The notes under the pieces are model-generated. The model saw only the letters and a list, made by a program, of their open reading frames with translations, was not told the DNA's origin and did not search any database. A stretch of 64,000 nucleotides of DNA from Patescibacteria group bacterium UBA5194 (GTDB lineage: Bacteria > Patescibacteriota > Gracilibacteria > BD1-5 > UBA6164). This document shows, in pieces, positions 23,117-64,000 of this stretch. The stretch covers positions 6,954 through 70,953 of the forward strand of contig DHWA01000013.1 of assembly GCA_002412935.1 (NCBI GenBank). Direction: 5' to 3'. The number at the start of each line of letters is the position of its first letter. Position 1 is the stretch's first letter. The position numbers and the translations under genes are program-made.

Positions 23117-23132
23117 ACTTATTTAAACACTT

Positions 23133-48100: not shown

Positions 48101-48547
48101 TTAATCTTTATTAATCAAATATTGTAATCTCTTATAATGAGTTTTTACAACAAATGAAGTATCTCTTATTTTTGAATCTATATAAGGATCTTTAGATCAT
48201 TTTTCTTTAAAACTATATAATTCAAATAATCTATTTACATTATAAATAAAGCTTCAATATGCTTTTATAACATCAAATCAAGTATAATAGCTAAATTCAT
48301 CATTTTCTATTTTTATTAAGATTTCTTTTTTTACCACATTGTTTACTGTTTTCATATAATTATACATATTATTGTATTTTGTCGTTTTTAAATTTACATA
48401 CTTTATAGATATAGCATCTAAATCTGTTTTTTGTATACCATATTCTAAATCAAGCATATCAGAAATTTCTCATTCTGACGCATTTACAAAATTAGCTATT
48501 GAAAAAATCGAAACAAAGATTATAATGAGACTTACAACTTTTTTCAT
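48101..48547 (-). CDS. hypothetical secreted protein
   Basis: 148 aa with signal peptide MKKVVSLIIIFVSIFSIANFVNA. Its stop codon abuts the ftsE stop. Confidence 0.45.
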
Positions 48548-48610
48548 AATTTATATTTTAAAAAGTAAATTAATTACCTTATACTTATTTTTTAATTATT
48601 GTCAAGTAAA

Positions 48611-49339
48611 ATGAATAAAAATTATTATGAAACTCTTTGAGTTACAAAAACAGCAAGTGAAGATGAGATAAAAAAAGCTTTTAGAAAACTCGCTATGAAA
48701 TATCACCCAGATAGAAACAAATGAGATAAAGCTACTGAAAGCAAATTTAAAGAAATAAATGAAGCATACAGTGTACTTTCTGATAAAGAAAAGAAAAAAC
48801 AGTATGATACTTTTTGATCAGATTTTTCTTGATTTAATGGTGCATCTTGAAATCCATTCGCAGGATGATGAAATCGTTCTTATACTACTTCTGATTTTTC
48901 ATGATTTGAAGATATATTTGGATGATTTGCTTGAAATAATTCAAGAAGTAAAAAAGCTAGTTCTTTTGATTTTTCAGATATATTTTGATGATTTAATTCT
49001 AGTAATCAAAGACAACAAGATGATTATTCTTCAAATTATCAAAAACAACCTCCAAAAAAAGAAGAATCTCTTGATGTGGAAAAAACCTATGAAGTACCTA
49101 TTTTTGACTTAATTTTAGGTTGTAGTATAGAAGTAGAATGAACAAACAAGAAAAAAGTAAAATTAAAAATCCCAGCAAACACAAAACCTTGAATTAAATT
49201 TAGAGTCAAAGATTTAGGAATTTCAAAAAATTGAAAAATATGAAATCTAATTGTGAAAATAGAAGCAAGAATGCCAAAACATATATCAGATGTTGATAAA
49301 AGCTTACTTGAAAGAATAAGAGAAAATATTGGGTATTAA
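48611..49339 (+). CDS. J-domain co-chaperone (CbpA/DnaJ-like, no zinc finger)
   Basis: 242 aa. J-domain with KYHPDRNKG, a G/F-rich linker with most Gly as TGA, and a single C-terminal substrate-binding-like domain. Confidence 0.8.
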
Positions 49340-49558
49340 GACTCTTGTTTAGAATCTCACAATATAAAATTAATAAAATTTTTAATATATTCAATTGTAA
49401 ATCATTGTTCTCATAGTGTTCAAGACATCTTTACTCTTCACTTTTCTAATCAGTGAGGAAATACACTTATTTCAAGAAAATTATCTTGGTAAGTATCACA
49501 TTTAACAACTTCTCAAAATTTTTTTAATCAATGCATTTTGTAAATTTATATAATTATA

Positions 49559-49585
49559 AGAACCTCCAAAAAAGGTTCTATTTTT
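49559..49585 (+). terminator. stem-loop AGAACCT-N7-AGGTTCT followed by a T-run
   Basis: 7-bp perfect stem, then ATTTTT. Lies about 220 nt downstream of the J-domain gene. Confidence 0.4.
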
Positions 49586-49661
49586 CTAAAACAATTATTG
49601 TTATAATTATTTTTAGATTAAAGTCAAAAAAGATTTAGAATTTATTTATGGAATACTCCCT

Positions 49662-49769
49662 TGTCATCCTGAGAGTAACGAAGGATCCCTTGAATACGGT
49701 ATTTTCTAAGTTTCATTATAAATATAGTAAACCGTGTCTAAGGGATTCTTCATTTCATTCAGAATGACA
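49662..49769. mobile_element. complete TGTCAT-family element (intergenic)
   Basis: TGTCATCCTGAGAGTAACGAAGGATCCCTTGAA...CTAAGGGATTCTTCATTTCATTCAGAATGACA, with about 32-nt inverted arms. Confidence 0.8.
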
Positions 49770-49793
49770 GAACTCTCAAGTTCTACCCCCTAA

Positions 49794-50354
49794 TTATTCT
49801 ATTCTCATCAACTTTTCCTTAATTATTTGATCAAATCAACTCAATTTAAAAATATCTTTTAGTTTATTTTTATTTATAAACTTCAATACTTTTTGAACTA
49901 ATTCATCTGGGTGCTTCAAATCTAATTCTCAGAGTAGATTAATTACTTTTAATCTGGATAAAATCAATTTCATTTCATCTATATTTTTTGTTTCATTTAC
50001 TTCCTCAACTATTTCAAATACATCTTTGAATACAAGTCATTCTGGAAGTTTATGATAAACTATTCAAATTATTATTATATATTCATTTATAGTAGCATAA
50101 TCCCTTCATTCATATCTAAACTCTGATTTTATTTTTATATTTTTGATTTTGTGAATATCTCTTTGTTCTTTTGTTTCTATTTCACAATTTATTATATATC
50201 CTAGATCCATTGTTTTCTCTTTTTTATGCTCTTTTTTTTGTACTTTTATTCTACCATAATCAAAAGTAAAGATATCGTAGATAAAATCCTTGTCTTTTAC
50301 CTTAGATATTTTTAAAATTATTGCTTTTGTTTTAAAAAGAGTCATAAATAACAT
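49794..50354 (-). CDS. recO: DNA repair protein RecO (short form)
   Basis: 186 aa. N-terminal OB-fold-like TKAIILKISKVKDKDFIYDIFTFDYGRIKV. Extends track ORF 50106-50354 through a TGA. Confidence 0.65.
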
Positions 50355-50596
50355 TTAATTACTAATAATTAAAATGATATTTTTTTATTTTCATTTAGCA
50401 AATAATTTTCATATAAGTGCTTTAATAAAAGCTCCTTATGTGTATCGAAATACCCAATATTTTATATATAAAATACTTTTATAAAAAAGTCCAAGCAAAA
50501 ATATACAAAAAATTGGATTTTTTTAAACTTTTTCTATACAATACTCTAGCTTTAATTTTAAAAGCTTATATTTTAATTTATAACTTTATATTTAAT

Positions 50597-51334
50597 ATGA
50601 TAAATATTAAGAAACAATGATTTACATTGGTGGAACTGATAGTTGTTATCACAATCCTTGCTATCCTTTGAAGTATAGCTTTTATATCTTTACAAGGTTA
50701 TAGTTCAGATGCTAGAAACTCTAAAAGAACTAGTGATCTAAGTTCTATACAAAGTTCTCTAACTGTTAAACAAACTTCTGGAACTGATCTAAATGCATTT
50801 GTAGATTCAAATGCTAGAAATCTCCTTACTACTGTTCCTATAGCATGAGTTACTAATGCACCTGCTGGTACTTATAAAGCTTGAACTATTAATTACAATG
50901 CCTTGGATATGAAACAAGCTGATTTCCAAGATCCTCAATCTAATGTTTCATATGCAATATGAATAACTACTTGAGCTGGTTGAGCATATCAAATAGCTGC
51001 ATCTATGGAACAATCAGGATGATCAAAAGTTGCAAGAGTAGTTTGAAATTGGATGAATAGAAGTGCTACAACTTATAACACTGTTGCTACTTGAAGTACT
51101 GTTGTATTAAATTCACCTGGTGATGTAAACAGATTTAAACTTGGTGATACTTTAAATTTATGAGGAGCTATTACATGAACTGTAAATAGAGTTTCTGCTG
51201 ATGGTATGACTTTAACTTTATCAACAGGTTCAACTAGTACTGCTATAAGACTTAATTTTGCTGAATCTGAAGGACTTATAGGTAGTGGTAGTACAATTTT
51301 AGTTAAAGATAATTTATCTGTTCTTCCTTACTAA
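50597..51334 (+). CDS. type IV pilin / pseudopilin
   Basis: 245 aa. Prepilin motif KKQG-FTLVELIVVITILAIL, with the invariant cleavage-site Gly encoded by TGA 50618-50620. Confidence 0.8.
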
Positions 51335-51360
51335 TCTTTAGTAAATTAAACTTAAATTTA

Positions 51361-51398
51361 AAAAAGAACTTTCCGATGGAAAGTTCTTTTTTTTATGG
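51361..51398. terminator. bidirectional rho-independent terminator
   Basis: 13-bp stem AAAAGAACTTTCC / GGAAAGTTCTTTT flanked by A- and T-runs. Sits between convergent genes. Confidence 0.65.
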
Positions 51399-51406
51399 AT
51401 ATTTTT

Positions 51407-52327
51407 TTACAACTCCACTTTTTCCTTATACTCTTTCATAAATCTCTTTTCAAAATCTTTTTTTGTGAAAGTATGATTTTGAGTACCATACTTTTCTATA
51501 CAATAACTCGCTGTTAGACATCACAATTTTGCTGAGACTTCCCAAGTATAGGAATTATGTAATCAAGTTATTAATCAAGCTCTAAATGCATCTCAAGCTC
51601 AAGTTGGGTCAGCTACATTTATATTTTTTAGAGCATTTACTTTTTGTTCTTTTTTCTTGTCTATTATTTTTACTCCATCTTTTCACATAGTTACTATTAT
51701 CTTATCGAGTTTTTTCTTTAAATCTTCTTCACTCATAGAAGTCTTATCTAAAAATAAACTGTATTCATAATCATTTAATATAAGATAATTACTATATTCC
51801 AGACAATCTATCAATTCTTCTTTTGTAAAACTTGTAATCATCTGCCCTGGATCAAAAAAAGTTTTTATTTTTAATTCATAACTTTGTTTTAGATGTTTCA
51901 TCATAACTATTTTATCATTTGGTGAAACAATACTATAAGATATATCTATTGCTGGTACATTTTGAGTATTTTCAGCACTTAAAGCACCAGGATAAAATGC
52001 ATTGATTTGATTATTATCTTTGTCATTAATTATATAACAAGAAGCAGTTTGCATATCTTTGATTTTATACAAGTTAGAATAATCTATCAATTTACTTTTT
52101 TCTTTAAAATCATCTCAGACTACTCAAAGCAGTATAGATTTTTCTCATAAAAGTCCTATATTGTAAGCTATATTGTGTCCTGTTCATCATTTTTGTTTTG
52201 TAAGACTTGGTGTGAAAAAGCTCACATTGAGCATATGTATCTTATCAGGTAATATATGGTTTTTAAAACTATCTCAAAAATCCATTATATAATCATAAGC
52301 CATCGATCCAGAAACAAGTATTTTCAT
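51407..52327 (-). CDS. PfkB-family carbohydrate/nucleoside kinase
   Basis: 306 aa. GGTGHNIAYN N-motif and DPTGAGDAF catalytic motif. Extends track ORF 51683-52090. Confidence 0.8.
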
Positions 52328-52369
52328 AAAAAAAATTGGTAAAATTATAAAGTTTTAAAAGTAAATGTA

Positions 52370-52509
52370 TGTCATTCCCGAGAAGTCGGGAATCTTCATT
52401 ATATTGTAGCTAAGAAATAGTGGATTAAATATTTTTTAATATTTTTAGTTCAGTTTTATTGATTGACTATTTTTATACAAAGTAGATTCCCGCCTTCGCG
52501 GGAATGACA
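52370..52509. mobile_element. complete TGTCAT-family element, CCCG-hairpin arm type
   Basis: TGTCATTCCCGAGAAGTCGGGAATCTTC...GTAGATTCCCGCCTTCGCGGGAATGACA. The left half is about 90 percent identical to 53999-54132. Confidence 0.8.
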
Positions 52510-52643
52510 ATAAAGAAAAAAATTAAATTTTTAACTATCACTTTTTATTTTAAAGCTTTTTAAATATAAACAAAAATATATTATTTCAAAGTTTATTTTG
52601 CTTTTTTTATATTTGATTTATACTTAAGAAATATTTACTATCT

Positions 52644-52733
52644 TGTCATCCTGAATATAATGAAGGATCCCTTAAACTTGGTATTTTCACAAAACAATGT
52701 AAATGGATTCTTCGCAAAAGCTCTACAATGACA
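52644..52733. mobile_element. complete TGTCAT-family element (90 bp)
   Basis: TGTCATCCTGAATATAATGAAGGATCCCTTAA...GGATTCTTCGCAAAAGCTCTACAATGACA. Confidence 0.75.
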
Positions 52734-52762
52734 ACCGAATATTAATCTCTAACACAAATTAA

Positions 52763-53989
52763 ATGAAAATCGCAATACTTCACGAAATGCTTATAAAACT
52801 TGGTTGAGCTGAAAAAGTTGTAGAAAAAATTGCTTCTATTTTTCCTGATGCTCCGATTTTTACTCTGATTTACGATGAAGAAAAAGTATGAAAAATATTT
52901 CCAAAAGATAAAGTAAAAGTAGCTTCATCTACTCAGAGAATTTATAATATTACAAAAAATCAAAGATTTTGTCTTCCTTTTATGCCTAGAGCTGTTGAAA
53001 GTCTTGATTTTTCAGATTATGATGTAGTTATTTGTTCTTCTTCTGGATTTGCACATTGAGCAATTACCAAACCAGAAACTAAATTTATCGTTTACTATCA
53101 TTCTCCTGCAAGATATCTATGGGATTGGACCAATGAATACAAAAAAGATATTGGTTTTGATAAGTGATTAAAATGATATATATTAAATAAATTATTTTTG
53201 AGTCTTAGAATGTGGGATGTAATTGCATCATCTAGAGTGGATATAAATCTAGCAAATAGTAAAAATTCTGCTTCTAGAGTACAAAAATATTACAGAAAAA
53301 CTTGTGAAATACTTTATCCTCCTATCGAAACAAAGAGATTTAAGAAAGAAATCAATAAAGTATGAGTTTTGGAAACTATACTGTCATCCTGAACGAATGT
53401 GAAGGATCCCTTAAGCAAGGTAATCACTAAAAAATCAAGTTCAAGGGATTCTTCGTTACTCTCAGAATGACAAACAGTAAATAATATAACATATTACATA
53501 ATTATATCAGCACTAACCGAATTTAAAAAAATAGAAATAGCAATAGAATGATTCAACAAAATGCCTGACAAAAATCTGGTTATAATTTGAGATTGAAATT
53601 ATAGAGAAACTTTGAAAAATAAAGTAAATTGAAATAATATAATTTTTACATGAGCTAGATACTCTGATGAACTTGTAGAGTTAGTTCAATGAAGTCTAGG
53701 GCTCATATTTCCATGAGAAGAAGATTTCTGAATAGTTCCAATTGAAGCAATGGCAGCAGGAAAACCTATCTTTGCATATGCTTGAGGATGATTACTTGAA
53801 ACTGTAATTGATAACAAAACTTGAAGCTTTTTCCAAGATAAGACTTGATATGATTTTGTCCCAAAATTTGCAGAATTTGATCAAAAAGTTAACTCATGAT
53901 TTTTTGACAAAAAATTTATAACAAAACATGCCCTAAAATTTGATGAATCTTTATTTGAGAAAAGGATTAAAGAGATTGTAAATTGATAA
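52763..53989 (+). CDS. GT4-family glycosyltransferase carrying a roughly 30-codon repeat-derived insertion
   Basis: 408 aa. EEDFGIVPIEAMAAGKPIFAY is the GT-B C-domain motif. The frame is uninterrupted through the inserted element. Confidence 0.8.
53382..53472. mobile_element. TGTCAT-family element inserted in frame in the glycosyltransferase CDS
   Basis: TGTCATCCTGAACGAATGTGAAGGATCCCTTAAGC...CAAGGGATTCTTCGTTACTCTCAGAATGACA. Translated as LSSGTNVKDPLSKVITKKSSSRDSSLLSEGQ. Confidence 0.75.
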
Positions 53990-53998
53990 ACTAATATA

Positions 53999-54132
53999 TG
54001 TCATTCCCGAGAAATCGGGAATCTTCATTATATTGTAGCTAAGAAATAGTGAATTAATATTATTTTTAGATACTACTATTTATCTATTATTGTTATTATA
54101 CAAGGTAGATTCCCTTCTTCAAGGGAATGACA
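53999..54132. mobile_element. complete TGTCAT-family element, CCCG-hairpin arm type
   Basis: TGTCATTCCCGAGAAATCGGGAATCTTC...GGTAGATTCCCTTCTTCAAGGGAATGACA. Confidence 0.8.
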
Positions 54133-54181
54133 TACTTTTCTATTTTTATAATGCATTTCACGATGTGTATCATAGAGATTT

Positions 54182-54288
54182 TTAAGGGGGTAACTTCGCC
54201 GTAATACGAAGCACAATAAAAATAGTCTCATCAGCGAAGATTTACCCTCTTAAATTCTTTTTGCTACTTTTTGGAATCAAAAAGTAAG
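54182..54288. mobile_element. short relative of the 7946-8264 element
   Basis: TTAAGGGGGTAACTTCGCC...GCGAAGATTTACCCTCTTAA palindrome, followed by ATTCTTTTTGCTACTTTTTGGAATCAAAAAGTAAG, which resembles the right TIR of the 7946-8264 element. Confidence 0.5.
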
Positions 54289-54310
54289 AGATAAGTAAAT
54301 ACAATATAGT

Positions 54311-54386
54311 AAATGGATTGCTTCGAAAAAACTCGCAATGACAAAAAGTAAATACAAGGAAGATTCCCGCCTTCGCGGGAATGACA
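54311..54386. repeat. two solo right arms of TGTCAT-family elements
   Basis: AAATGGATTGCTTCGAAAAAACTCGCAATGACA (54311-54343) and GGAAGATTCCCGCCTTCGCGGGAATGACA (54358-54386). Confidence 0.65.
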
Positions 54387-54390
54387 TTAA

Positions 54391-54422
54391 TTCCTAAATT
54401 CTATATTCTACATTCTTTATTC
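54391..54422. repeat. NNATTCT heptamer run (TTCCTAAATTCTATATTCTACATTCTTTATTC)
   Basis: Ends at the recR stop codon. Shares TTCCTA-ATTCTATATTCT-CATTCT with 45675-45700. Confidence 0.5.
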
Positions 54423-54424
54423 AT

Positions 54425-55033
54425 CTAAATCTCCTTCCTCTCCTTTATAGCATTCAATATAGTAATATTATCCGCATATTCAATATATCCTGAGCTTAAT
54501 CATCTACTCAAACGAGTTATTTTAACCTTGTAACTTAATCAAATTTTACTGATTTCTTCCTTTATGTAAGCTGTTGTAGCTTCTCATTCTATGTTTGGAT
54601 TTGTAGCTATCAAAAGCTCTATTTTATTTTCACTATTTTCTATCCTTGCAAACAATTTTTTGAAGTTTAAATCAGCAGCAAAAACTCAATTAATCGGAGA
54701 AATTGATCACCCAAGTATATGATAAACTCAATTGTATCATCCTGTTTGTTCTATCGTAAGTAAATCTAAATATTCTTCAACTACACAAATCATATTTTTT
54801 TCACGAATTACAGAAGCGCAAATCTTGCAAGATTCTTGACCTGCATTCATAAGAGATCCACATATAGGGCACTTAGATATTTTTGATTTTAAATCATCCA
54901 AACTACTTTTAAAATTTTCTATATAATCTGATTTTGCGTTTAACAAAAAAAAAGCCAATTTTGTAGCAGTCTTTTCTCATATTCAAGGCAATAAACTTAT
55001 GTTATTTATCAATCTTTTTAGAACTTCGGGCAT
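54425..55033 (-). CDS. recR: recombination protein RecR
   Basis: 202 aa. HhH LPGIGEKTA, C4 zinc finger CPICGS...CKICAS, Toprim region. Extends track ORF 54737-54958. Confidence 0.85.
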
Positions 55034-55060
55034 TTTTTTAAATTAGATTATAGTATTTTT

Positions 55061-55082
55061 TGCATTCTACATTCTTTATTCT
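55061..55082. repeat. NNATTCT heptamer run (TGCATTCTACATTCTTTATTCT)
   Basis: Lies 28-50 nt upstream of the recR start on the minus strand, next to a TATAAT box. Confidence 0.45.
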
Positions 55083-55176
55083 AAAAATCAAAATTTTTAA
55101 TTAAAAATTAGACACAAAAAAAAGTTTATATATAATGAAAAAATATAATTTATTTTAATTCATAATAAATATAAAA

Positions 55177-55608
55177 ATGAAAGAAGTTACAAGATGTATA
55201 ATAAAAAATAAAGAGTGAAATATACTTTTAATAAGACATAAATGATCTGAATCATGGACTTTGCCCGGATGACATGTAGAAAATAAAGAAAACATATATA
55301 ATGCAATAAAAAGAGAAATAAAGGAAGAACTCGGTGTAAGTCTAAAAATACTTTGATATAAAATATGATTTGAAGTAAAAAAAATAAAAGAAAAACCACT
55401 ACCACTATGTGTATACAAAGTAGATTATACAAATAGAAAATGAAAAAAAGTAACAAAACTTGAATACATATTTCTAGGTAAAATAAAAGATGAAATAATA
55501 AAAACTCAAATAGATGAAGTTGATGAATTTAAATGGTTTTCTGTAGATGAAATAGAAAATCTAGAAAATACTTTTGATCAAATTAAAGAAATTATAAAAA
55601 TTGTATAG
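55177..55608 (+). CDS. NUDIX hydrolase
   Basis: 143 aa. Nudix box GGHVENKENIYNAIKREIKEELG, with the second Gly encoded by TGA. Confidence 0.8.
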
Positions 55609-55613
55609 ATTTT

Positions 55614-55707
55614 TGTCATTGCGAGTTTTTACGAAGCAATTCAGAAATCATTGATTTAACAATAAAACACTATTTAAGGGATTCTTCGCTAATCGCTCAG
55701 AATGACA
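55614..55707. mobile_element. TGTCAT-family element with arms from two different subtypes
   Basis: Left arm TGTCATTGCGAGTTTTTACGAAGCAAT (GCAA type). Right arm TTAAGGGATTCTTCGCTAATCGCTCAGAATGACA (GGATCCC type). Confidence 0.7.
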
Positions 55708-55736
55708 GTTTTTCAGTGTTTACTTAATTAAAAAAT

Positions 55737-57404
55737 ATGTCCAACTTACTTTTATATGTTTTATTTTTCTTTATTTCATTAATTCATTCTAGTTTTCTAA
55801 ACTATTTTTGATTTGATTTTAATTCATTAGTTAATTGAAATTTTGAATTTACAAAAGTTATATTTTTTGATATTATTTCATCATTAATTATAATTTCATT
55901 TTTAATTGAAAAATCCTTCAAAAAAGAAAAAATCAAGATATACTACCCTATAATCTTGATTTTTATAATTGCCCTATCATTTATATCTACTTTTTTTTCT
56001 ATATCTTCTTTTATATCACTTTTTTGAAATACAAATAAAGCACATTGACTTATATTTATATGAAATTTAATTTGAATTTTTATAGTTTTATCAAACAAAA
56101 ATAAAGAAGAATTAAATAAGTTTTTAAGAGTTTTTTTGTTATCTTTATTTATAGTTTTCATTTTAGGAATAAAAGAATTATATTTGCCCTCTTTAAACTA
56201 TCAAGAAACTGTCAATAAAGCTGTTTCCAGCTTTTGAAATAATCAATTTTTAGCTTTAAGTACCATACTTATCATTCCTCTATTCTTCAAAAAATATAAA
56301 TCAAAATACAATTTTTTAGTGATATTTTTCTTATTATTTGTGCTAATACTTACAAAATCACTTATTTGAATTAGTATTTTTTTATCATATCTTTGTTTTA
56401 AATTTTTATGAAAAAAGAAATGATTTTTATTCTCATTCTTAGGTTTTATTATTTGATCTCTTGTTGTATTTTTTTATTTTCCTGAAAAACTGCATTCTCT
56501 TTTTTCTAGATTTTATATTTGGCAAAATGTATTAAATTTATACATATCTTCATTTAAAAATATATTATTTTGATATGGTTTTGAAACTCTGGATTTGATT
56601 TTTCCAAAAGAAAAAAATCCTTATCTTTATATCTTTGAAAATTACTGATTTATAGCTGATAGAAGTCATAATTTATGGCTTGATATACTTTATTCTACTT
56701 GAATTTTATGATTTTCTCTGACTTTATATATCACTTTTAAGATTTTAAAAATTTCTAAAAATACATATTATTATGATATATTTTTGTTGTTTTTTATTTT
56801 TGTGTTTTTCAATTTTGCATCAGTAGTACATTATTTGTTTTTACTAATTATCTTAGCTTTGTTTTTGAAAAAAGATGATTTAAAAATAGATACAAGCAAA
56901 TTTAAGATAAACATTTTTTATTTTATTTTCATAATTTTCTCTATATTTTCAATCATTTACAGTACTAAATTTTTTATAGCAGAAGTATATTACAAAAAAT
57001 GAAATCTAAGCAAGTCTATCGAAAGTTTTAATTATCCTGAATATTATTTTGAAGTATGAAGCTATAATAAATGACTAAAATATTATAATAATTTTATCCC
57101 TCTAGATTATTACAAAAATCTGATACCAAAAGATTTAAATAATCTAATTACTAATTGTGAAAGCTTTGTAAACAGTTATCCAATTGCTGAAAATTATTTA
57201 TGGTGTGGGGAAATTTTAGAAAGAGAAAACTATAAAAAAGAAAGTCTTGTTTTTTATAAAAACTGACTTTCTAAACTACCAGATTTGCGGAATAAGGAAT
57301 CTACATATTATTATAATTTCTTTGTAAAATATACAATTTCTTGAAATAGATTTTTCAATGAAAAATACTGAAATTTGAGAGAAATAATAAATCTAAGGAA
57401 GTAA
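55737..57404 (+). CDS. O-antigen ligase (Wzy_C)-like polytopic membrane protein with C-terminal soluble domain
   Basis: 555 aa. More than 10 TM helices. ADRSHNLWLDILYSTG motif. Contains track ORF 56784-57002. Confidence 0.65.
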
Positions 57405-57779
57405 TTTTAAATTTTCTTCTATTCTTCTTATTATTTGTTTATTGATTATATTATCATCATTATTTATCATCTCAATTAAATCAGAAAGTGTTAAAACTAT
57501 TAATTCTAAATTAGTAATAGCTTTTACTGTTGCAGTTCTAGCTTCTTCATTTAATAAAGCTATCTCTCAAAACATTTCTCAATCTGATAACTCAGCTATT
57601 TTATTTCAATTTATTTCAACTTCTACTATTCAAGATTTTATTATATATGATTTTCAATTAGACAATTCTCATTCATTAAAAACTACATCTCAACTATTAA
57701 AAGTCTCTACCTGAGCATAAGATAATATTTTTTCAACTACTTCATTATCAATTCAATCAAATATTTTTAAGTTAGCCAT
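57393..57779 (-). CDS. cyclic-nucleotide-binding domain protein
   Basis: 128 aa. GEMFGEIALLNEEARTATVKA is the cNMP phosphate-binding cassette. Its 3' end overlaps the convergent gene by 12 nt. Confidence 0.7.
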
Positions 57780-57810
57780 AAATTATAAATTAGGAGTTAA
57801 TGGTGGGTTT

Positions 57811-57831
57811 TCTGATTCTGCATTCTATTCT
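57811..57831. repeat. NNATTCT heptamer run (TCTGATTCTGCATTCTATTCT)
   Basis: Lies between the mutL stop and the cNMP-binding gene start. Confidence 0.4.
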
Positions 57832-57865
57832 AATATATTTCTCAAAAAAAAACAAGTAATTTATA

Positions 57866-59812
57866 TTATCTATCGTATTTTTTCTTCAAATCTTGTAGAG
57901 TTAATTCAGAAACAGAAGGTCTTCAATGTGGACAAGTTGAACTATATGACAAGACACTGTCATTAAGTAATTTATTCATCTCAAATAGATTTAATTTATT
58001 ACCGAATTTGATTGCTGATCTACAAGCTGTATAAGCACATATTTTATTTCTTACTTCCTCTAAATTCATAGATTTTCAAGTATTAAATTCTCATATATCA
58101 CTAATTATTCACAAAAAAATGTTTTTTATATCTTCTTTTTTAATAAAATTTGGAATAGCACTTAAAAGTACACTTGAAGTAGACAATATTTCAAAATCAA
58201 ATCCCATATCCAAAAAGATTTGTCTATATTGTGTCAATATCGAAATTTCTTTTCCAGTAAGATTTAAATTTTCTTGAATTAAAAGTTGTTGAGATTGTGT
58301 ATCTAGATCTTTTTTTATAAGTTTTTCATAAATTATTCTTTCTGCTAGTGCATGCTGATCAAGGATTATCAATTTATCATCTTTTTCAACAATTATATAA
58401 CTATTAAAAACTTGCCCTACTATTTTTCATAGAGATGTATAATGTAAATCAGAATTTACACCTAAATCACTTCAAGTAAAATCTTTTAAAAAATGTTTTG
58501 TAAACTCAATGGAATCTTTTATTGTATTTTGTGCTGGATTTGTAGATACATCTTTATATGGAGAATATGATTTGAATTTTGTTCCGGAACCTGTGTAATA
58601 TATATTATGTCATTCCCTTGAAGAAGGGAATCTTCATTGTATTGTTTCCTTTTGTCATTCACTATGTTGTCATTGCGATACTGCCAGAGTACAGGGAGTA
58701 CGAAGCAATCCATTCACTATATTGTTTCATGTTTTCTGGATTGCTTCGTTACTCTCGCAATGACAGTTTTCTTCTCAATTATCACTTTCATCTATATTAA
58801 CCAAACTACTATTTTCCAACTTACTCAAAATAGCATTATAAAAAGCTCTGTATATTTCTTGTTCTCTTGCAAACCTGATTTCTTGTTTTCTTGGATGTAC
58901 ATTTACATCGATTTCTTCGGGATTTATTTCTAAATTTAATATATATCCTGGAAAATTATTGTGTGGGATGAACCTACGATATGCTTCATTTATTGCTCTA
59001 TAAATAAGAGGTGAACTTATAATTCTCCCATTTACAAATATTGCTTGTCTATTTTTATTTAGAAAATGAATCTTTGGAGTTGAGATAAATCAATTTATAT
59101 TAAGTCATGAAAAAGAAAAATCTATACCTAACAAATTATTATAAAATTCTTCTCAATATATATTATAGATTCTTGTTTTTAAATCTTCATTTTCTTTGTA
59201 CTTAAAAATTATTTTTCAATTATTTACAAATTCAAATCAGATTTGTGGATGAGCAAGTGCAATATTATTTAGAAAATCACTTATGTGACTATATTCTGTT
59301 TTTTCTTTTTTAAGGTAGTTAATTCTTGCTGGAGTATTAAAAAATAATTCTTTAACAATTATTTTAGTTCATATGTTTATACTTTCTTCTTTTATATCTA
59401 ACTTTTCTCATCATATAACTTCTAAAGAGTATCATCCTTGTCATCCTGAACTTGATTCAGGATCTCTTGTTTTTGAAATTATCTTAAATTTTGAAACAGA
59501 TGATATAGACGCCAAAGCTTCTCACCTAAATCAAAAAGTCATAACTTTATGTAAATCTTCTAGATTTTTTATTTTTGAAGTAGTATGTTTTTCTGTAAGT
59601 ATAATTAAATCTTCTTTTTCTATTCCTACTCAATTATCACTTATAATTATCTCATCTATTCAACCTGAAGTGATTTCAACCTTTATACTAGTGCTTCAAG
59701 CATCTATACTATTTTCTACAAGTTCTTTAACTACTGAAACTGGTCTTTCAACTACTTCTCAAGCTGATATCTGATTTATAAGTATTTTATCTAGTTTAAT
59801 AATTTTTGACAT
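57866..59812 (-). CDS. mutL: DNA mismatch repair protein MutL with repeat-derived insertions
   Basis: 648 aa. Frame checked codon by codon. GHKL motifs VVKELVENSIDAG, DNGVGI, GFRGEAL. C-terminal domain ILDQHALAERIIYE and CPHGRP. Confidence 0.85.
58608..58765. mobile_element. composite of one solo arm, one arm fragment and one complete TGTCAT-family element inside the mutL linker
   Basis: TGTCAT starts at 58608, 58653 and 58668. The complete element 58668-58765 has arms TGTCATTGCGATACTGCC...ACGAAGCAATCC and GGATTGCTTCGTTACTCTCGCAATGACA. The whole stretch is translated in frame. Confidence 0.75.
59439..59466. repeat. solo TGTCAT-family arm inside the mutL N-terminal domain
   Basis: TGTCATCCTGAACTTGATTCAGGATCTC, read on the minus strand as RDPESSSGGQ. 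Confidence 0.5.
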
Positions 59813-59843
59813 AAAAAAATCTTTAATAGTATTATTAAAGATT
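59811..59843 (-). terminator. stem-loop with T-run between the small membrane gene and mutL
   Basis: 10-bp stem AATCTTTAAT / ATTAAAGATT, followed on the minus strand by a T-run. Confidence 0.45.
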
Positions 59844-59872
59844 ATATTAAAATTTCTGTTTTAATAAAGAAA

Positions 59873-60100
59873 TTATTTTTGATTTTTTTTGAATTTTGAT
59901 TTTATAGCTTCTTTTACACTATTTGGTATACTTTCATAACTTTTTAATATTTGTTTTATTTTTGTATAATAAGAAGTTATCTCATCAACTACTGATAAGA
60001 TTCTAACAACTTTTACAAGTGCAATAACAAGAAGAGTACCAATTACAGACGTAAAAACAATAAGTACTATGTAAAGAGCTTCTAAAATTGTAATTGTCAT
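59873..60100 (-). CDS. hypothetical small membrane protein
   Basis: Track ORF of 75 aa with no TGA needed. One TM helix followed by an amphipathic tail. Confidence 0.5.
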   Translation of the reverse strand: MTITILEALYIVLIVFTSVIGTLLVIALVKVVRILSVVDEITSYYTKIKQILKSYESIPNSVKEAIKSKFKKNQK

Positions 60101-60158
60101 AAATTATAAATTTAGGAAATATATATTAGTAATATTTTAAAATATCTTAGAACATTAT

Positions 60159-60830
60159 TTATTTAGATATCTCTGAAATTATGTCAGAATCATTTATTAT
60201 ATTATTTGTATTATTTTGAGAACTGCTAGAAACCGGAACTTCAACTTTTTCTTCTGTTTTTGTGATATTTTCACCACTTCATACTTCACTTGTTACAACA
60301 ATATTAGATTGATTAGTAGAAACTGGTGAAACTTCTTTTTTTGTATCATCAATATCTTTTATAGATTTTTCTATATCAAGTGATAGACTTTTTACTATTT
60401 TATTTATTTTTTCTTCTGTTGCAACTACTTTTACAACTTTCTCATTTTCAAATAAAACTAAACTAGGTATAGAAACAATTTGGTACTTTGATAAATCAAG
60501 TCATTCTAAAGATGATTCAACTAATTTTATTCATATATTTCTAGTCCATGCTTTTGTATAAATAACTGGTAATTCATATAAAAATTTCTTGAAAAAATCA
60601 CTTTCTTTAGAAGCAAATATACAAATTATCTTTTTTGTTTCTTCTTTATTCGAACTTTCACTAAAATAATTTTTTGATTTTCATATAAAATCTTCTAACT
60701 CAAACAATGTCTTAATAGTAAAATTTGATTCAATCAATTTTTTTGCAGTTTTTTCAACTGTTTCATTATATAACTTTAAACTATCTGATTTTATAGAAGA
60801 AAATTTTTCTTTAAGTTTTGAGAAATCCAT
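60159..60830 (-). CDS. hypothetical protein with thioredoxin-fold-like segment lacking CxxC
   Basis: 223 aa. IVSIPSLVLFENEKVVKVV resembles the cis-Pro/beta region of thioredoxins. No redox cysteines. Confidence 0.4.
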
Positions 60831-61021
60831 TTTAAATAAATTAAAATATAAAAATGTCTATTATTATTGTACTATAAAATTATTGTTTTGTAAAATTTTT
60901 GTGTTTTATAATACTATATTTTTAATGTTTTTTGATTAAATTATTTGACTTTTTAAATATTTTTCTTTTAATAACAAAGAATAGTTAATTTATAATATTT
61001 TAATTAGTAATAAATAAATTT

Positions 61022-62578
61022 ATGGCATGAAAAATGGAGGATAAACAGTTTAAACATTATGAATGAAATGTACTTTGAGGTTGAGACTGAAATTCACATG
61101 CAACAAAATGAGGTGTTGATGAAGCAAATATAAGAACATCAGACTTTGTAAGATGATTATTAACTTGAAAGGATTGAGAAATTAGATTATGAAATTATAT
61201 CTTATCAATGTGAACAGACTGAGTATGAACGAAAATCCAGATTTATATGAGACAATTTGAAAATTATTTCCAAGAATATAATAAATCAGAGAAATCAGAA
61301 GAAAATTATAATATTGCATTAACAAGTACAATTGAATTATGTGATAGAATGTTAGCAGATTTAACTGCAATGCTATTTGATGATTGAATAAAATGAGAAA
61401 GATCAATAGCTTTTACTGATATAATTGATACAAACAATACAGATAATACACATGGAACAAGACCTGAAATATTTTTTAAAGCATTTAAAATATCTTTATG
61501 AAAAAGTATAATTGGTAAAGATTCTTTAAATTTAAATTGAGAAACTGCAAATTTATGAGAAAATTGAAAATTTGTAAGAGCCTTAGAAAGATATAGAAAA
61601 TCATGAGAACTTGCAAAAAAAGAAGTAACTAGATTAACAAATGAAATAAATAATCAAAGAAATCAATTAGCATTATTATATCCATCTTCTTCACCTGAAG
61701 TTAGATTAGCGACATCAAAGATAGAGAAAGGTATGCAGTCAAACAAAGATTGAAGAAGAAATATAATTGAAGAATTTAAATCAGCTAGAAAAGATATGAT
61801 AGATTTATGGAATGAATTAGAATTAAACCTTGCATGAACTTTTCTTTGAGTAAAAAAAGCTGAAAAAGTAACTAACAAATTGGTTAAAATGGAAGAATGA
61901 GATAAAATAATAGTTTTATCAGAAACAGAAACTAAAAACTGAATTATTTCCCCAAGATCAAATGGATTAACTTTAATTAGACAAAAATGTAAAGAATTAT
62001 TATGAGATAATTGGGAAAATAAAACATTTGAAGATTATTTATTAACTATAGGAAGTAAAGCATCTAAACTACCTAAAAAATTAAAACAAAAACTTGCATG
62101 ATTAAAAATGTGGGATATTGCGACTTGAGAAACTACTGTATTTAATAAATTTATTGCTGATGATTTATTAGGATGAATAAAATGAAAACCAATTGCAAAA
62201 ATATCAGGACTTAGACATTGAACATGAAATCCTCAATATAAATTACATTCAGGATTGGAATGAAGAGAAGATCTTATGATAGATATAGATATAAGTGAAT
62301 TAGAAAAAGCAGATATATTTACTTTATTACAAGTTGCTTTTGATTTAGATGATAAAACAGTTGCAAAGCCATGGAATATGTGAATTCCATATACAATATT
62401 TTGTAAACCATGAGAAGAAGATAAGATATTAGAACAAGCTAGAGAATCATGAATTACAGCAAATTTAGTATGAGAAATAAAGAAAAGATGAGAAGATGAT
62501 CCTTCTGTAAGAATAAAATGAGTGTGAATTTGAAAATCAGAAATTACATATTCTAAAGATAGAGAAAAAACTGTTTAA
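61022..62578 (+). CDS. AIR-synthase-related (PurM-like) protein with large insertions
   Basis: 518 aa. LSMGTDGVGTKIQI and DRMLADLTAMLFDDG resemble PurM N-domain motifs. The assignment is tentative. Confidence 0.5.
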
Positions 62579-62674
62579 TTAAAAAAAATTATAGTGCTTA
62601 TTTATTGATTTCTTACAAAATATAAAGTATACTTATTTATAGTTATATTTAATTTATATTTTAAATAAAATTAT

Positions 62675-62995
62675 ATGGAAAAATTTGATAAATCAGAAAC
62701 AACTAATTCTGTTGATAATATAAAACCTGAATCTGAAATAAAACCTATTAGTACTGAAAATTATAGAAAAAAGTTAGTTGAAATAAAAGAACAAGAACAA
62801 ATTGAAGATCCTGATAAAAATACTGCTGATGCTGATTTAGAAGCAGCGTTAGAATGAGTTGAAATGAATGATACTAAAAAACTAGAACATACTTTAGATA
62901 ATTCTGTTGTAATGAATGACATATGAAATACTCATATTATTAGTCCTGCTCAAAGAATCCTTCATAAACATGAAAACATGGAAATTCCTCAATAA
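62675..62995 (+). CDS. hypothetical acidic protein
   Basis: 106 aa. Extends track ORF 62675-62857 through TGA. Confidence 0.4.
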
Positions 62996-63020
62996 ATCAT
63001 AAAACATCTAATTAACAAAT

Positions 63021-63284
63021 ATGAGTAAAAAAGAAAATAAAAAAGTTGATTCTTTATCAATCAATAGAACAAATTTAGCAAATGAAAGAACTTTATTAGC
63101 TTATTGGAGAACATCTCTGACTTTTTTTGTACTATGAGGATTTCTTATAAAAACAATATATTGAACATTTTCCTTATTTTTTGGAATTATCTCAATAATA
63201 TTTTGAATATCTTTATTTATCTATTGAACTATAAGATATTTACAAGACAAAAAAACTATAAAGAAAAATGGAAATATATTGTAA
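63021..63284 (+). CDS. DUF202 (YidH-like) membrane protein
   Basis: 87 aa. NLANERTLLAYWRTSL motif followed by two TM helices. Confidence 0.65.
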
Positions 63285-63285
63285 A

Positions 63286-64000
63286 TTACAATATATTTTT
63301 TATTATCTTATAATAAGCATTTATCCCTACCATTGCAGCATTATCCATACTATAGATTTTTTTTATTGGATAGATAAATTTTATATTTTTTCAAATTATC
63401 AATTTTTCGATATATTCTTTTAGTCTATCATTTGCACTTACTCATCAGGCAAGCATCACAGTTTTTGTATTATATTTTTCTGTTGCATTTACAAGTTTTG
63501 TAGCTAATACTTCTGTAACTGCTTCCTGAAATTCATAAGCTATTTCTTGTTTATCTTCTAAAGTTAATTCTCCAGATTTCTCAATTCTTTTGTCTACTTC
63601 TCTTTTTACACTTGATTTCACTCCTGAAAAACTAAAATTTAACTCATCTTTTTGTAGCCAACTACGAGGAAAGAGATTTGAACTAAGTTCTTGCCCCCTT
63701 GACAAGGTGAATCCAGCAGTATGCTGGAGAGAAGGTACTCTGGAGTATAAAGGGGGTGTAGGGGGTTTTTCTTTATATTTCTCTGCCAACTCAGAAATAA
63801 TCGGACCACCGGGATATCAAAGTCACATCATCTTGGCTACTTTATCAAATGCTTCTCCAGCACTATCATCTTGAGTTCATCATACTTTATTGAAATCAAA
63901 CATATTTTTCATATAATAAATCTCATTGTGTCCACCTGAAACAGTTAGACAAACTAGAGGATAAGTTATATCCTTTTCTTTTCTCTCAATATAATTTGAA
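63286..64000 (-). CDS. tsaD: tRNA N6-adenosine threonylcarbamoyltransferase TsaD, 5' end outside window, with a GC-rich in-frame insertion
   Basis: [46 protein letters not shown] motifs. Extends track ORF 63445-63789 through TGA TGA. Confidence 0.85.
63694..63765. repeat. GC-rich palindromic segment inside tsaD
   Basis: CCCCCTT...AAGGGGG flanks, an internal CCAGCAGTATGCTGG hairpin, and trailing GTAGGGGG. Encodes extra residues between [15 protein letters not shown] and NLFPRS. Confidence 0.5.

What the first reader, a model, noticed from the sequence alone, without database searches (positions are those of the whole stretch)
58608..59466. mutL contains repeat-derived sequence at two sites yet stays a single intact 648-codon ORF
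Seen in sequence:
- The inter-domain linker holds a solo arm, an arm fragment and a complete element (58608-58765). They are translated as ...NCHCESNEAIQKTGNNIVNGLLRTPCTLAVSQGQHSEGQKETIQGRFPSSREGHNIYY...
- A further solo arm lies in the N-terminal ATPase domain (59439-59466, RDPESSSGGQ).
- I verified that no TAA or TAG occurs in frame from 59812 to 57866.
- The three TGTCAT starts in the linker are spaced by 45 and 15 nt, both multiples of three.

Inference: there were repeated insertions into a tolerant linker. If MutL activity is affected, this could feed back on genome stability and repeat spread.
Basis: partly seen in the sequence, partly recalled or inferred. Interest (0 to 1): 0.65.

Follow-up and report, generated by a model that had tools for sequence, protein, structure and literature searches.

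The report
Palindromic repeats translated inside mutL
An intact, conserved DNA mismatch-repair gene (mutL) of a Gracilibacteria genome carries four small mobile hairpin repeats of a known, very widespread family that are read through as extra protein loops, much as in Rickettsia.

Summary
With genetic code 25 (TGA = Gly), mutL (59812..57866, minus strand) is one 648-codon ORF. All MutL motifs are present and dN/dS against close relatives is 0.05-0.10.

It holds four in-frame repeat pieces:
- a head-to-head hairpin dimer (58668-58765)
- a hairpin-deleted remnant (58653-58667)
- a 45-nt unit (58608-58652) in the disordered inter-domain linker
- a solo 8-bp-stem hairpin (59439-59466) in a beta-hairpin turn just after ATPase motif III, not in the ATP lid

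The "arms" fit the published CGTC/TGTC-tagged REP superfamily. This includes Neisseria dRS3/NTS, the Ssn-related motifs and Rickettsia RPE-4/6. In-frame copies of it are already known, often in DNA-repair genes.

A 93%-identical syntenic relative lacks the 45-nt unit and the N-terminal hairpin, so turnover is recent. Two other lineages carry such a hairpin at exactly the same N-terminal codon position.

Nothing suggests impaired MutL or a feedback on genome stability.

The new points are modest: mutL as a host, CPR bacteria as carriers, and an unexplained rule. All 14 gene-antisense arms are read in the frame that makes the tag's TGA a glycine codon.

The parts
57866..59812 (-). mutL coding sequence: 648 codons + TAA, genetic code 25. 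Pfam domains are HATPase_c_3 at aa 26-120, DNA_mis_repair at 215-332 and MutL_C at 465-606.
   Evidence: dN/dS against L001 is 0.047 (N-terminal domain) and 0.105 (C-terminal domain).
59439..59466 (+). Solo TGTC-tagged REP hairpin: tag TGTC, 8-bp stem ATCCTGAA/TTCAGGAT, loop CTTGA, tail CTC. It lies antisense to mutL and encodes about aa 116-126 (RDPESSSGGQG). It replaces the ancestral 5-residue turn (IESLS), a net gain of 18 nt.
   Evidence: The site lies in a beta-hairpin turn. The same site is hit in P0008 and P0085.
58740..58765 (-). Left arm of the head-to-head REP dimer (TGTCATTGCGAGAGTAACGAAGCAATCCA). It is sense to mutL and encodes NCHCESNEAIQ (aa ~349-358).
   Evidence: (inverted repeats I11, I20). 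It is shared with L001.
58710..58739 (-). Spacer of the dimer (GAAAACATGAAACAATATAGTGAA), encoding ~KTGNNIVN. It is similar to the spacers of other dimers, e.g. 43647-43676.
   Evidence: (direct repeats D3, D11).
58668..58709 (+). Right arm of the dimer: TGTCATTGCGA...ACGAAGCAATCCA with an enlarged 28-nt loop. It is antisense to mutL and encodes GLLRTPCTLAVSQGQ (aa ~368-382).
   Evidence: The whole dimer folds at -26.4 kcal/mol, z -8.3.
58653..58667 (+). 'Arm fragment' TGTCATTCACTATGT. It consists of a tag plus the end of a spacer with the hairpin missing. I read it as the remnant of a spacer-plus-arm unit after deletion across the AAT microhomology. It encodes HSEGQ and is also present in L001 and L002.
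   Evidence: The deletion origin is inferred from comparison with the dimer's own spacer/arm junction.
58608..58652 (+). 45-nt (15-codon) unit: tag + 8-bp-stem hairpin ATTCCCTT/AAGGGAAT (58608-58631) + conserved tail (58632-58652). It is antisense to mutL and encodes KETIQGRFPSSREGH. It lies directly next to the previous tag. It is absent from L001 and present, with compensatory stem changes, in L002.
   Evidence: Word depth at this arm is 4000-6700 against 65-100 for unique sequence.

Best explanation
What it is. mutL here is a functional gene of a Gracilibacteria genome that reads TGA as glycine. It has been colonised at two structurally permissive places by small palindromic mobile repeats of the CGTC/TGTC-tagged REP superfamily. 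Each arm has an unpaired TGTC tag, a stem that starts with AT, a short loop and a short tail. Arms are often paired head-to-head. This is the kind of element known as Neisseria dRS3/NTS, as 'Ssn-related motifs' and as Rickettsia RPE-4/RPE-6.

What is shown.
- The inserts are recent and recurrent gains and losses.
- They are multiples of three in length and lack TAA/TAG.
- They lie in the intrinsically disordered inter-domain linker and in the tip of a beta-hairpin of the ATPase domain.
- The rest of the gene is under strong purifying selection.

What is inferred.
- Insertions occur all over the genome. Selection keeps only those that preserve the frame and fall in linkers or surface turns.
- TGA = Gly makes the conserved tag complement (..ATGACA) translatable.
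- Once one arm is present, new units are added directly next to its tag. This builds same-orientation arrays bounded by 8-11 nt direct repeats, which are just as easily lost again.
- The mobilising activity is most likely a hairpin-specific single-strand DNA enzyme such as the GIY-YIG nuclease Ssn, which is genetically linked to these motifs in other phyla. No such gene was found in the DNA available here.
- The translated segments are passenger peptides with no demonstrated function.
For: Intact gene.
- Intact ORF and motifs under code 25.
- 120 Gracilibacteria orthologues. The closest is 92-95% identical and syntenic.
- dN/dS is 0.047-0.105 in the two domains and 0.34 or more in the linker.

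Repeat family in the window.
- 22 arms against 0.44 in shuffles.
- Hairpin energies.

Gain and loss against L001.
- 45 nt at 58604-58648.
- Net 18 nt at the N-terminal site.
- Clean REP indels in intergenic DNA at 55610-55722, 52628-52671 and 52375-52508.

N-terminal site.
- 98 of 104 orthologues have a fixed length there.
- The window, P0008 and P0085 carry TGTC arms of different stem sequence at the same codon, in the same orientation and frame.

Structure. AF2 models put the site in a hairpin turn and show a disordered linker.

Linker. REP-type peptides are 30-50 times enriched in the linker across orthologues.

Other genes. The same elements are in-frame in rnpA, hsdR, a glycosyltransferase, a radical-SAM gene and, in L001, tsaD. 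Most lie between Pfam domains; the rnpA insert splits its domain.

Family identity.
- Features match Di Nocera et al. 2013, PMC3733652.
- Window arms at 52482 and 54359 match the Neisseria NTS with 2-3 mismatches and match the published SRM pattern (PMC11893778).
- The ATTGCGAG arm is found, mostly as head-to-head dimers, in at least 120 loci across many phyla.
- In 5 of these loci it brackets an Ssn-like GIY-YIG gene.

Assembly. Independent contigs confirm the sequence.
Against: - No ssn homologue, and no other candidate transposase, was found in the 64-kb window or in about 133 kb of related Gracilibacteria loci. The rest of the genome could not be searched.
- The four mutL arms themselves do not match the published SRM search pattern. 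Their stems are AT-richer compensated variants.
- The ATTGC-type arms have only a 5-bp perfect stem and long loops, outside the 8-9 bp stem and 4-5 nt loop of the CGTC family definition.
- The N-terminal event is not a clean insertion. 14 nt were replaced by 32 nt, and no target-site duplication is seen. The insertion chemistry is therefore unknown.
- The exclusive use of the TGA frame by antisense arms (14 of 14) is not explained by a simple 'random insertion plus purifying selection' model.
- No expression or protein data exist. No RNA runs were found.
Confidence: 0.85

Rival explanations
1. The intragenic repeats have been co-opted. They could act as DNA sites for an Ssn-type single-strand nuclease that modulates recombination or transformation of mutL alleles. 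They could act as mRNA hairpins that tune translation or stability. The extra peptides could tune linker length or partner binding.
For: - In Neisseria, NTS/SsnA modulates integration of transforming DNA, and NTS clusters around particular genes (PMC11893778).
- Di Nocera et al. noted that intragenic REPs are often in replication and repair genes.
- The N-terminal site is hit in three lineages.
- The frame choice of antisense arms is strict (14 of 14).
- dprA lies in the neighbourhood (L001, L127, L128 and L130) and a Competence (PF03772) gene lies in L129.
Against: - The inserts differ between very close relatives and are absent from most orthologues. They are therefore not conserved features.
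- Linker dN/dS is relaxed.
- The same elements occur in unrelated genes and mostly in intergenic DNA.
- No ssn gene was seen locally.
Confidence: 0.1
2. This mutL copy is decaying (a pseudogene in the making), and the repeats mark loss of constraint.
For: Four repeat pieces in one gene. The protein is longer than typical (648 aa against about 600-615).
Against: - No stops or frameshifts under code 25.
- All ATPase and endonuclease motifs are intact.
- dN/dS is 0.05-0.10 in both domains.
- Synteny is conserved.
- No second mutL lies in the window.
Confidence: 0.03
3. Assembly artefact or chance resemblance: repeats were mis-joined into the gene, or the matches are fortuitous in AT-rich DNA.
For: Contigs of the source metagenome break at each repeat. 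One 'joint' (58633 to 59440) appears in all four runs.
Against: - Overlapping contigs of four runs tile the region with zero differences. They include a 124-nt piece across 58609-58732 and a 726-nt piece across 58739-59464.
- The 'joint' has only 26 nt on a side and 16 foreign letters between. It is therefore another REP locus cross-matching.
- Independent assemblies of relatives share the dimer and the remnant.
- Shuffles give 0.44 arms against 22 observed.
Confidence: 0.02

Closest known systems
CGTC-tagged REPs (Di Nocera, De Gregorio & Rocco 2013, BMC Genomics 14:522; PMC3733652). They include Neisseria dRS3 and Rickettsia conorii RPE-4 and RPE-6.
   Same: - Unpaired tag CGTC, 'changed to TGTC' in many copies.
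- Stem starting with A-T in the first and second positions.
- 8-bp stems with 4-5 nt loops (the N-terminal arm and the ATTCCC arm).
- Short unpaired tail (CCA on the ATTGC arms).
- Head-to-head dimers predominate.
- Several stem sub-classes coexist in one genome.
[quoted passage not shown]
- No dedicated transposase was identified.
   Different: - Host phylum: Gracilibacteria/CPR is not among the 5 phyla listed.
- mutL is not among the listed host genes.
- The genome is AT-rich (25% GC) with AT-richer compensated stems.
- ATTGC-type arms have a 5-bp stem and 10-28 nt loops.
- Tails are often CTT/CTA/CTC instead of CCA.
- TGA is a sense codon here, so a reading frame that is closed in all organisms studied so far is open, and it is preferred.
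NTS / Ssn-related motifs (SRM) and the GIY-YIG single-strand nuclease Ssn (Chenal et al. 2025, Nat Commun 16:2388; PMC11893778)
   Same: - Window arms at 52482-52509 and 54359-54386 equal the 28-nt NTS (CGTCATTCCCGCGMAVGCGGGAATCYRG) with 2 and 3 mismatches, and match the SRM pattern.
- The arm at 47247 resembles NTSvar.
- The mutL arm at 58608 is the same hairpin with two compensated stem pairs.
- In my cross-phylum sample the ATTGCGAG arm brackets Ssn-like genes in the published NTS-ssn-NTS layout.
   Different: - No ssn gene was found in the DNA at hand.
- The four mutL arms fail the published SRM pattern.
- The paper's main text, searched by keyword, does not discuss intragenic, translated copies.
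- A role in transformation is untested here.
Rickettsia palindromic elements (RPE; Ogata et al. 2000, Science 290:347; reviewed in PMC10969869)
   Same: Palindromic repeats are inserted in-frame into many unrelated housekeeping genes. They add peptide segments at positions compatible with fold and function. Both cases concern a small-genome, host-dependent bacterium.
   Different: RPE-1 is about 100-150 bp, whereas these units are 25-100 nt. Sequence relatedness to RPE consensus sequences was not tested here.
REPINs mobilised by RAYT transposases (Bertels & Rainey 2011; PMC3116915)
   Same: Two inverted hairpin repeats separated by a spacer act as the apparent mobile unit. The whole doublet can fold into one long hairpin.
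   Different: - The tag is TGTC/CGTC, not GTAG.
- Dimers can combine arms of different stem class (for example 55614-55706).
- No RAYT is known for this superfamily, and none was looked for beyond ORF inspection.

Membership tests
CGTC-tagged REP superfamily | Unpaired 5' tetranucleotide tag CGTC (TGTC/CCTC variants allowed) | tested here: met
   All four mutL pieces and all 22 strict arms of the window start with TGTC. CGTC variants occur in L005.
CGTC-tagged REP superfamily | Stem of 8-9 bp whose first two pairs are A-T, T-A; loop of 4-5 nt | tested here: inconclusive
   Met by the N-terminal arm (8 bp, loop 5) and the 58608 arm (8 bp, loop 4). The two ATTGC arms of the dimer start with AT but have only a 5-bp perfect stem and 12- and 28-nt loops. 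The paper allows unusual loops in some families.
CGTC-tagged REP superfamily | Short unpaired 3' tail, consensus CCA | tested here: inconclusive
   CCA on the ATTGC arms. CTT on the 58608 arm and CTC on the N-terminal arm.
CGTC-tagged REP superfamily | High copy number, mostly head-to-head dimers | tested here: met
   - 22 arms in 64 kb.
- Dimers at 32857-33006, 43355-43459, 43623-43703, 47247-47349, 49662-49768, 52370-52509, 53382-53471, 53999-54132, 55614-55706 and 58668-58765.
- Word depth is about 60 times the unique depth at the 58608 arm.
NTS / Ssn-related motif (SRM) | Match to the published degenerate SRM pattern HGTCWYN(0-2)YYVSBRHN(0-5)WNVSBRGN(0-2)RNCYNB, or to NTS with few mismatches | tested here: not met
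   None of the four mutL arms matches. Three other arms of the window do (32857, 52482, 54359), against 0.05 in shuffles. Two are within 2-3 mismatches of NTS. The mutL arms are therefore relatives of SRM-type arms, not formal matches.
NTS / Ssn-related motif (SRM) | An ssn (cd10448 GIY-YIG) gene in the same genome, typically flanked by the motif | not testable with these tools
   An HMM built from 5 Ssn-like ORFs finds 7 hits in 120 cross-phylum loci. It finds none in the window or in L001-L005 and L126-L130. The remainder of the genome is not available.
Rickettsia palindromic elements (RPE) | Palindromic repeat inserted in-frame within functional ORFs, at sites compatible with the protein fold | tested here: met
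Rickettsia palindromic elements (RPE) | Sequence similarity to an RPE family consensus | not tested
   No RPE sequences were at hand. The link rests on Di Nocera et al. equating RPE-6 and RPE-4 with CGTC-1 and CGTC-4.
REPIN / RAYT system | GTAG tag and an associated RAYT (IS200/IS605-type Y1 transposase) | tested here: not met
   The tag is TGTC. None of the six ORFs scanned has a transposase domain. No systematic RAYT search was done.
MutL (endonuclease-type, MutH-independent) | GHKL ATPase motifs I-IV, DNA_mis_repair domain, and a MutL_C domain with DQHA(X)2E(X)4E, ACR and CPHGRP | tested here: met
   - ELVENSIDA, DNGVGI, GFRGEAL, DQHALAERIIYE, ACRSAIK and CPHGRP are all present and invariant in the alignment.
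- Pfam domains lie above their cut-offs.
- PDB hits to MutL N- and C-terminal domains.

The most novel reading that the evidence does not exclude
Reassigning TGA to glycine opened a reading frame across the one invariant part of these repeats, the tag complement ..ATGACA. In Gracilibacteria, gene-antisense copies are fixed only in that frame (14 of 14). This would mean the genetic-code change reshaped how a pan-bacterial selfish or regulatory hairpin family coexists with host proteins. It may add a mechanistic bias, for example integration coupled to in-frame TGA/Gly sites or to Ssn-type cleavage next to existing tags. The recurrent hit at one beta-hairpin of MutL would then reflect targeting rather than mere tolerance.
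Probability: 0.2. Interest if true: 0.65.

Novelty: new member of a known kind. Interest (0 to 1): 0.4.

Why it matters
- It extends a described phenomenon to candidate-phyla-radiation bacteria with an alternative genetic code. The phenomenon is REP/RPE-type hairpins translated inside essential genes, notably DNA-repair genes. mutL is added to the list of hosts.
- For annotation, it explains odd low-complexity peptides (CHCE.., VIAS.., ..SQGQ, ..REGH) and length variation in Gracilibacteria proteins. It also explains why assemblies fragment inside genes.
- The closely related genomes give clean before/after pairs of insertion sites for a repeat superfamily whose mobilisation mechanism is still unknown.
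- The strict TGA-frame rule is a small, testable link between codon reassignment and the tolerance of selfish DNA.
- It does not indicate a mutator phenotype.

Tried and rejected
- Rfam at gathering thresholds over the whole window found only a tRNA.
- Literature searches by repeat sequence and by typical encoded peptides found only primers or nothing. 'Gracilibacteria + palindromic + repeat' found nothing relevant.
- The Gracilibacterium paper from an oil-degrading community (PMC6851277) mentions neither these repeats nor mutL.
I used the orthologues P0008 and P0001 instead.
- A regular expression for GIY-YIG was too strict. An unbiased all-against-all clustering of ORFs near the motif then recovered the Ssn-like family. 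That association turned out to be already published.
- Looked for target-site duplications at five clean insertion events. None was convincing.
- Tested whether stop codons or hydropathy explain the TGA-frame rule. They do not.
- Considered that the shared AAGTT between the ancestral N-terminal site and the arm means local origin. Rejected, because the CTTG(A/T) loop is intrinsic to that arm sub-class elsewhere (14769, 32982).
- Considered P0002 and P0010, which come from one MAG, as evidence of mutL paralogues. Rejected, because both sit in the same synteny, so the bin is mixed.
- No RNA-seq runs hold the region.
Full report
**1. The observation**

The window has 25% GC. The minus-strand ORF 59812..57866 has 648 sense codons and ends in TAA. 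It has no in-frame TAA/TAG and 28 in-frame TGA.

Read with table 25 (TGA = Gly), every TGA that falls in a conserved MutL motif restores the canonical glycine: ISAGEVVERP, DAGST, DNGVGI, GFRGEALASI, CPHGRP. The organism therefore uses the Gracilibacteria/SR1 code.

Pfam gives HATPase_c_3 (aa 26-120), DNA_mis_repair (215-332) and MutL_C (465-606). The PDB search aligns the N-terminal domain to E. coli MutL LN40 and the C-terminal domain to the Neisseria and Bacillus MutL C-terminal domains.

- On the + strand, TGTCAT begins at 58608, 58653 and 58668. The spacings are 45 and 15 nt.
- An inverted partner ends at 58765.
- A further arm lies at 59439-59466.

**2. More than chance, and not an artefact**

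I used a strict arm definition: [TC]GTCA[TC], a stem of at least 5 bp starting at the A of the tag, and at least 2 G/C in the stem. It finds 22 arms in the window against 0.44 in shuffles.

As single-stranded DNA:
- the N-terminal arm folds at -6.4 kcal/mol (z -3.3)
- the 58608 arm folds at -6.3 kcal/mol (z -2.4)
- the whole dimer folds at -26.4 kcal/mol (z -8.3)

Logan contigs of four runs of one 2014 hydrocarbon metagenome tile 57800-59900 without a single difference and break only at the repeats. Word depth is 65-100 over unique sequence and 4000-6700 over the 58608 arm, which implies some 60 copies. The one recurrent 'joint' (58633 to 59440) has 26 nt on a side and 16 foreign letters between. 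It is therefore another repeat locus cross-matching, not a deletion allele.

**3. They are insertions, and the gene is under selection**

The protein search returned 120 Gracilibacteria MutL orthologues, mostly 597-620 aa. The best is 92-95% identical (P0001), then 85-87% (P0002), 80-84% (P0003) and 74-77% (P0004).

*N-terminal site.* The distance from motif III to NTPAR is exactly 52 residues in 98 of 104 orthologues. The window has 58. At the DNA level the syntenic relative L001 (93% nt identity) has ACA ATA GAA AGT TTA TCG TGA TAC. The window has ACA AGA GAT CCT GAA TCA AGT TCA GGA TGA CAA GGA TGA TAC. So 14 nt are replaced by 32 nt, a net gain of 18.

*Linker.* L001 shares the dimer and the 15-nt remnant but lacks the 45-nt unit. 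L002 (89% identical) has the 45-nt unit with two compensated stem pairs, next to a different dimer (SHPEFIS type).

*Selection.* Nei-Gojobori dN/dS under code 25 against L001 is 0.047 in the N-terminal domain, 0.105 in the C-terminal domain and 0.34 in the linker. Against L002 it is 0.045, 0.055 and 0.50. The gene is therefore functional, and the linker is relaxed.

**4. Where the inserts sit in the protein**

The window's own protein could not be submitted.

*P0001 model* (95% identical, no N-terminal insert):
- It has a tight beta-hairpin: strand 108-114, turn 115-120, strand 121-127, with pLDDT about 87.
- The window's arm replaces that turn.
- Residues 331-432 have pLDDT below 50, and 330-409 have no secondary structure. 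This stretch contains the REP-dimer peptide.

*P0008 model* (carries a longer arm at the same site):
- Its 21 extra residues form a low-confidence loop between strands 108-114 and 135-143.
- The low-confidence ATP-lid region is at 78-94, before motif III.

By alignment the site corresponds to about residues 115-120 of E. coli MutL. The insert is thus outside the ATP lid. Distances to the nucleotide pocket could not be computed, because model coordinates are not exposed.

**5. Anatomy of the linker array**

On the coding strand the order is:
- left arm, TGTCATTGCGAGAGTAACGAAGCAATCCA
- spacer
- right arm, ending ..TCGCAATGACA
- ACATAGTGAATGACA
- AAAGGAAACAATACAATGAAGATTCCCTTCTTCAAGGGAATGACA

The 15-nt piece equals the end of a spacer (ATAGTGAAT) joined directly to GACA. 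This is what remains if a hairpin is deleted across the AAT microhomology (inference).

Comparing L001, L002 and the window places the 45-nt unit exactly between an existing ..TGACA tag and AAAATC.., and it ends with its own TGACA. There is no target duplication. It is flanked by the 8-11 nt direct repeat GAATGACA(A/T)AA, which makes precise loss as easy as gain.

The same tandem order (an ATTGC unit followed by an ATTCCC unit) occurs in intergenic DNA at 54317-54386.

Published work shows that Ssn nucleases cut single-stranded DNA a few nucleotides 5' of the tag (PMC11893778). That insertion next to an existing tag reflects such cleavage is my inference only.

**6. A genome-wide habit, with rapid turnover**

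*Turnover.* Aligning window 47300-64000 with L001 shows further clean repeat indels at 55610-55722 (a 113-nt dimer), 52628-52671 (44 nt), 52375-52508 (a 134-nt dimer) and within 49340-49797.

*Location.* Nine of the 22 strict arms lie inside ORFs, although 86% of the window is coding. Insertions in genes are therefore depleted but far from absent.

*In-frame hosts*:
- rnpA (43623-43703): +28 aa against L002, splitting the Ribonuclease_P match after residue 67.
- A type I restriction R subunit (14769-14845): between Helicase_C and EcoEI_R_C.
- A radical-SAM protein (32857-33006).
- A glycosyltransferase (53382-53471): between its two Pfam domains.
- tsaD, in L001 and L130.

*MutL linker across orthologues.* REP-type peptides (CH[CSP]E, VIAS....[QE][GW][QH]) are 30-50 times more frequent per residue in the linker than in the rest of the protein. 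They are recognisable in at least 16 of 112 orthologues.

**7. The N-terminal hot spot**

Besides the window, two other lineages carry an arm at precisely the same codon position, antisense to the gene and in the same frame:
- P0008 (74% identical): GATCCTGAATCA...CCAGGATGACAGGGA, a long-loop arm.
- P0085 (54% identical): GATTCTGAATCTAGTTCAGAATGACAA, a different stem class.

Their nearest relatives lack the arm. P0019 and P0044 carry unrelated inserts there.

The events are independent, or else alleles were exchanged. Whether the cause is targeting or the narrowness of the tolerated turn (5 residues) cannot be decided from these data.

**8. What the repeats are**

Each arm has an unpaired TGTC tag, a stem beginning with AT, a loop and a short tail. 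Arms are mostly paired head-to-head, and several stem classes are related by compensatory changes (ATTGC, ATTCT, ATCCT, ATTCCCG, ATTATCGGG).

This is the definition of the CGTC-tagged REP superfamily of Di Nocera et al. 2013: tag 'changed to TGTC' in many repeats, stems starting with AT, tails about CCA, head-to-head dimers, no dedicated transposase. That paper equates its members with Neisseria dRS3 and with Rickettsia RPE-4 and RPE-6. It reports that intragenic copies encode 20-80 aa and often lie in replication and repair genes (uvrA, uvrB, uvrD, polA, recBCD, dnaE). mutL is not mentioned.

Two window arms (52482, 54359) equal the Neisseria NTS within 2-3 mismatches and match the published SRM pattern. 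The mutL arms do not match that pattern, because their stems are AT-richer.

Hits come from Alpha-, Delta-, Gamma- and Epsilonproteobacteria, Bacteroidota, Chloroflexi, Cyanobacteria, Planctomycetes, Spirochaetes, Firmicutes, Parcubacteria and Peregrinibacteria. Most are head-to-head dimers.

Unbiased clustering of ORFs near these hits recovered a small GIY-YIG protein bracketed by the arms in 5 loci, and an HMM finds 7 in all. That association is already published as the Ssn family of site-specific single-strand nucleases with an 'NTS-ssnA-NTS' layout (Chenal et al. 2025). No Ssn homologue is present in the window or in about 133 kb of related Gracilibacteria loci.

**9. An unexplained regularity**

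I pooled 197 kb of Gracilibacteria DNA: the window plus nine related loci. All 14 intragenic arms lying antisense to their host gene are read so that the tag complement ..ATGACA gives an in-frame TGA: SQGQ, REGH, PEGQ, SGGQ. Sense arms use all three frames (8, 3 and 3).

- The other two antisense frames are free of TAA/TAG in 24 and 28 of 32 distinct arms.
- Hydropathy favours the TGA frame only weakly.
- In the tsaD event the tag's last CA coincides with the ancestral CAA codon.

Under the standard code this frame is closed in every arm. So the code change opened it, but why it is used exclusively is unknown.

**10. Verdict**

The interpretation 'repeated insertions into a tolerant linker' is supported and can be sharpened. 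These are CGTC/TGTC-tagged REPs (NTS/SRM-like, RPE-like) fixed in-frame in a disordered linker and a surface turn of a selectively maintained MutL.

The suggested feedback on genome stability has no support in the sequence data.

This is a new member of a known kind. The modest novelty lies in the host gene, the host phylum and genetic code, the recurrent N-terminal site and the TGA-frame rule.

Noticed in passing
window, whole (e.g. 57866-59812: 28 in-frame TGA): The genome uses genetic code 25 (TGA = Gly). The table-11 tools break every gene into fragments, so all ORF work had to be redone in Python.
   Followed up: yes
window 32982-33006, 43623-43646, 58608-58631, 58668-58709, 59439-59463; L001:7417-7441; L002:6097-6181; L005:1668-1722, 2475-2499; L126:1156-1180; L128:11068-11091; L130:8145-8170, 11062-11085: All 14 of 14 arms antisense to their host gene are read with the tag complement ATGACA giving an in-frame TGA (Gly). 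Sense arms use all three frames. Neither stop codons nor hydropathy explains this.
   Followed up: partly
window 43623-43703 (rnpA), 14769-14845 (type I restriction R subunit), 32857-33006 (radical-SAM protein), 53382-53471 (glycosyltransferase): Further head-to-head repeat dimers translated in-frame in unrelated genes. Most lie between Pfam domains. RnpA is 28 aa longer than its orthologue in L002, and the insert splits the Ribonuclease_P domain.
   Followed up: partly
window 63681-63758 (tsaD); L001:16293-16367: A different palindromic element (CCCCCTT...AAGGGGG type, 78 nt = 26 codons) is inserted in-frame in the window's tsaD and is absent from L001. L001 has a related element in its glycosyltransferase, at the spot where the window has a TGTC dimer.
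   Followed up: no
L001:11939-12059 and within L001:6001-7588: A 121-nt MITE-like element with inverted ends (CACAGTACCGGTTCCT ... AGGAACCGGTACT) is present in the relative downstream of mutL, and again upstream, but absent from the window.
   Followed up: no
window 60899-62590: A 1.7-kb segment with a 518-aa ORF (61022-62578) that has no Pfam hit. It is present in the window but absent from the syntenic relative L001.
   Followed up: no
L006-L125 (genome scan), e.g. L044:1825-2031: The ATTGCGAG arm is nearly identical in sequence across at least 10 bacterial phyla, including CPR groups. One Anaerolineae contig has five tandem copies plus one more about 800 nt away. Seven of the 120 loci carry an Ssn-like GIY-YIG gene, and five of these genes are bracketed by the arms.
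   Followed up: partly
L002 and L128 (both from GCA_017973835.1): One MAG contains two mutL loci (87% and 74% identical to the window), each in the same gene neighbourhood. The bin most likely mixes two related Gracilibacteria rather than holding paralogues.
   Followed up: no
L004:3001-4956 (P0019) and P0044: Two more distant orthologues carry unrelated 11-33 aa inserts at the same N-terminal hairpin turn (for example ..SPHSVS..PKGREEAT..).
   Followed up: no
window 13116-24557: A restriction-modification neighbourhood: a type I R subunit, with ORFs of uncertain function downstream. One REP dimer sits inside the R subunit.
   Followed up: no
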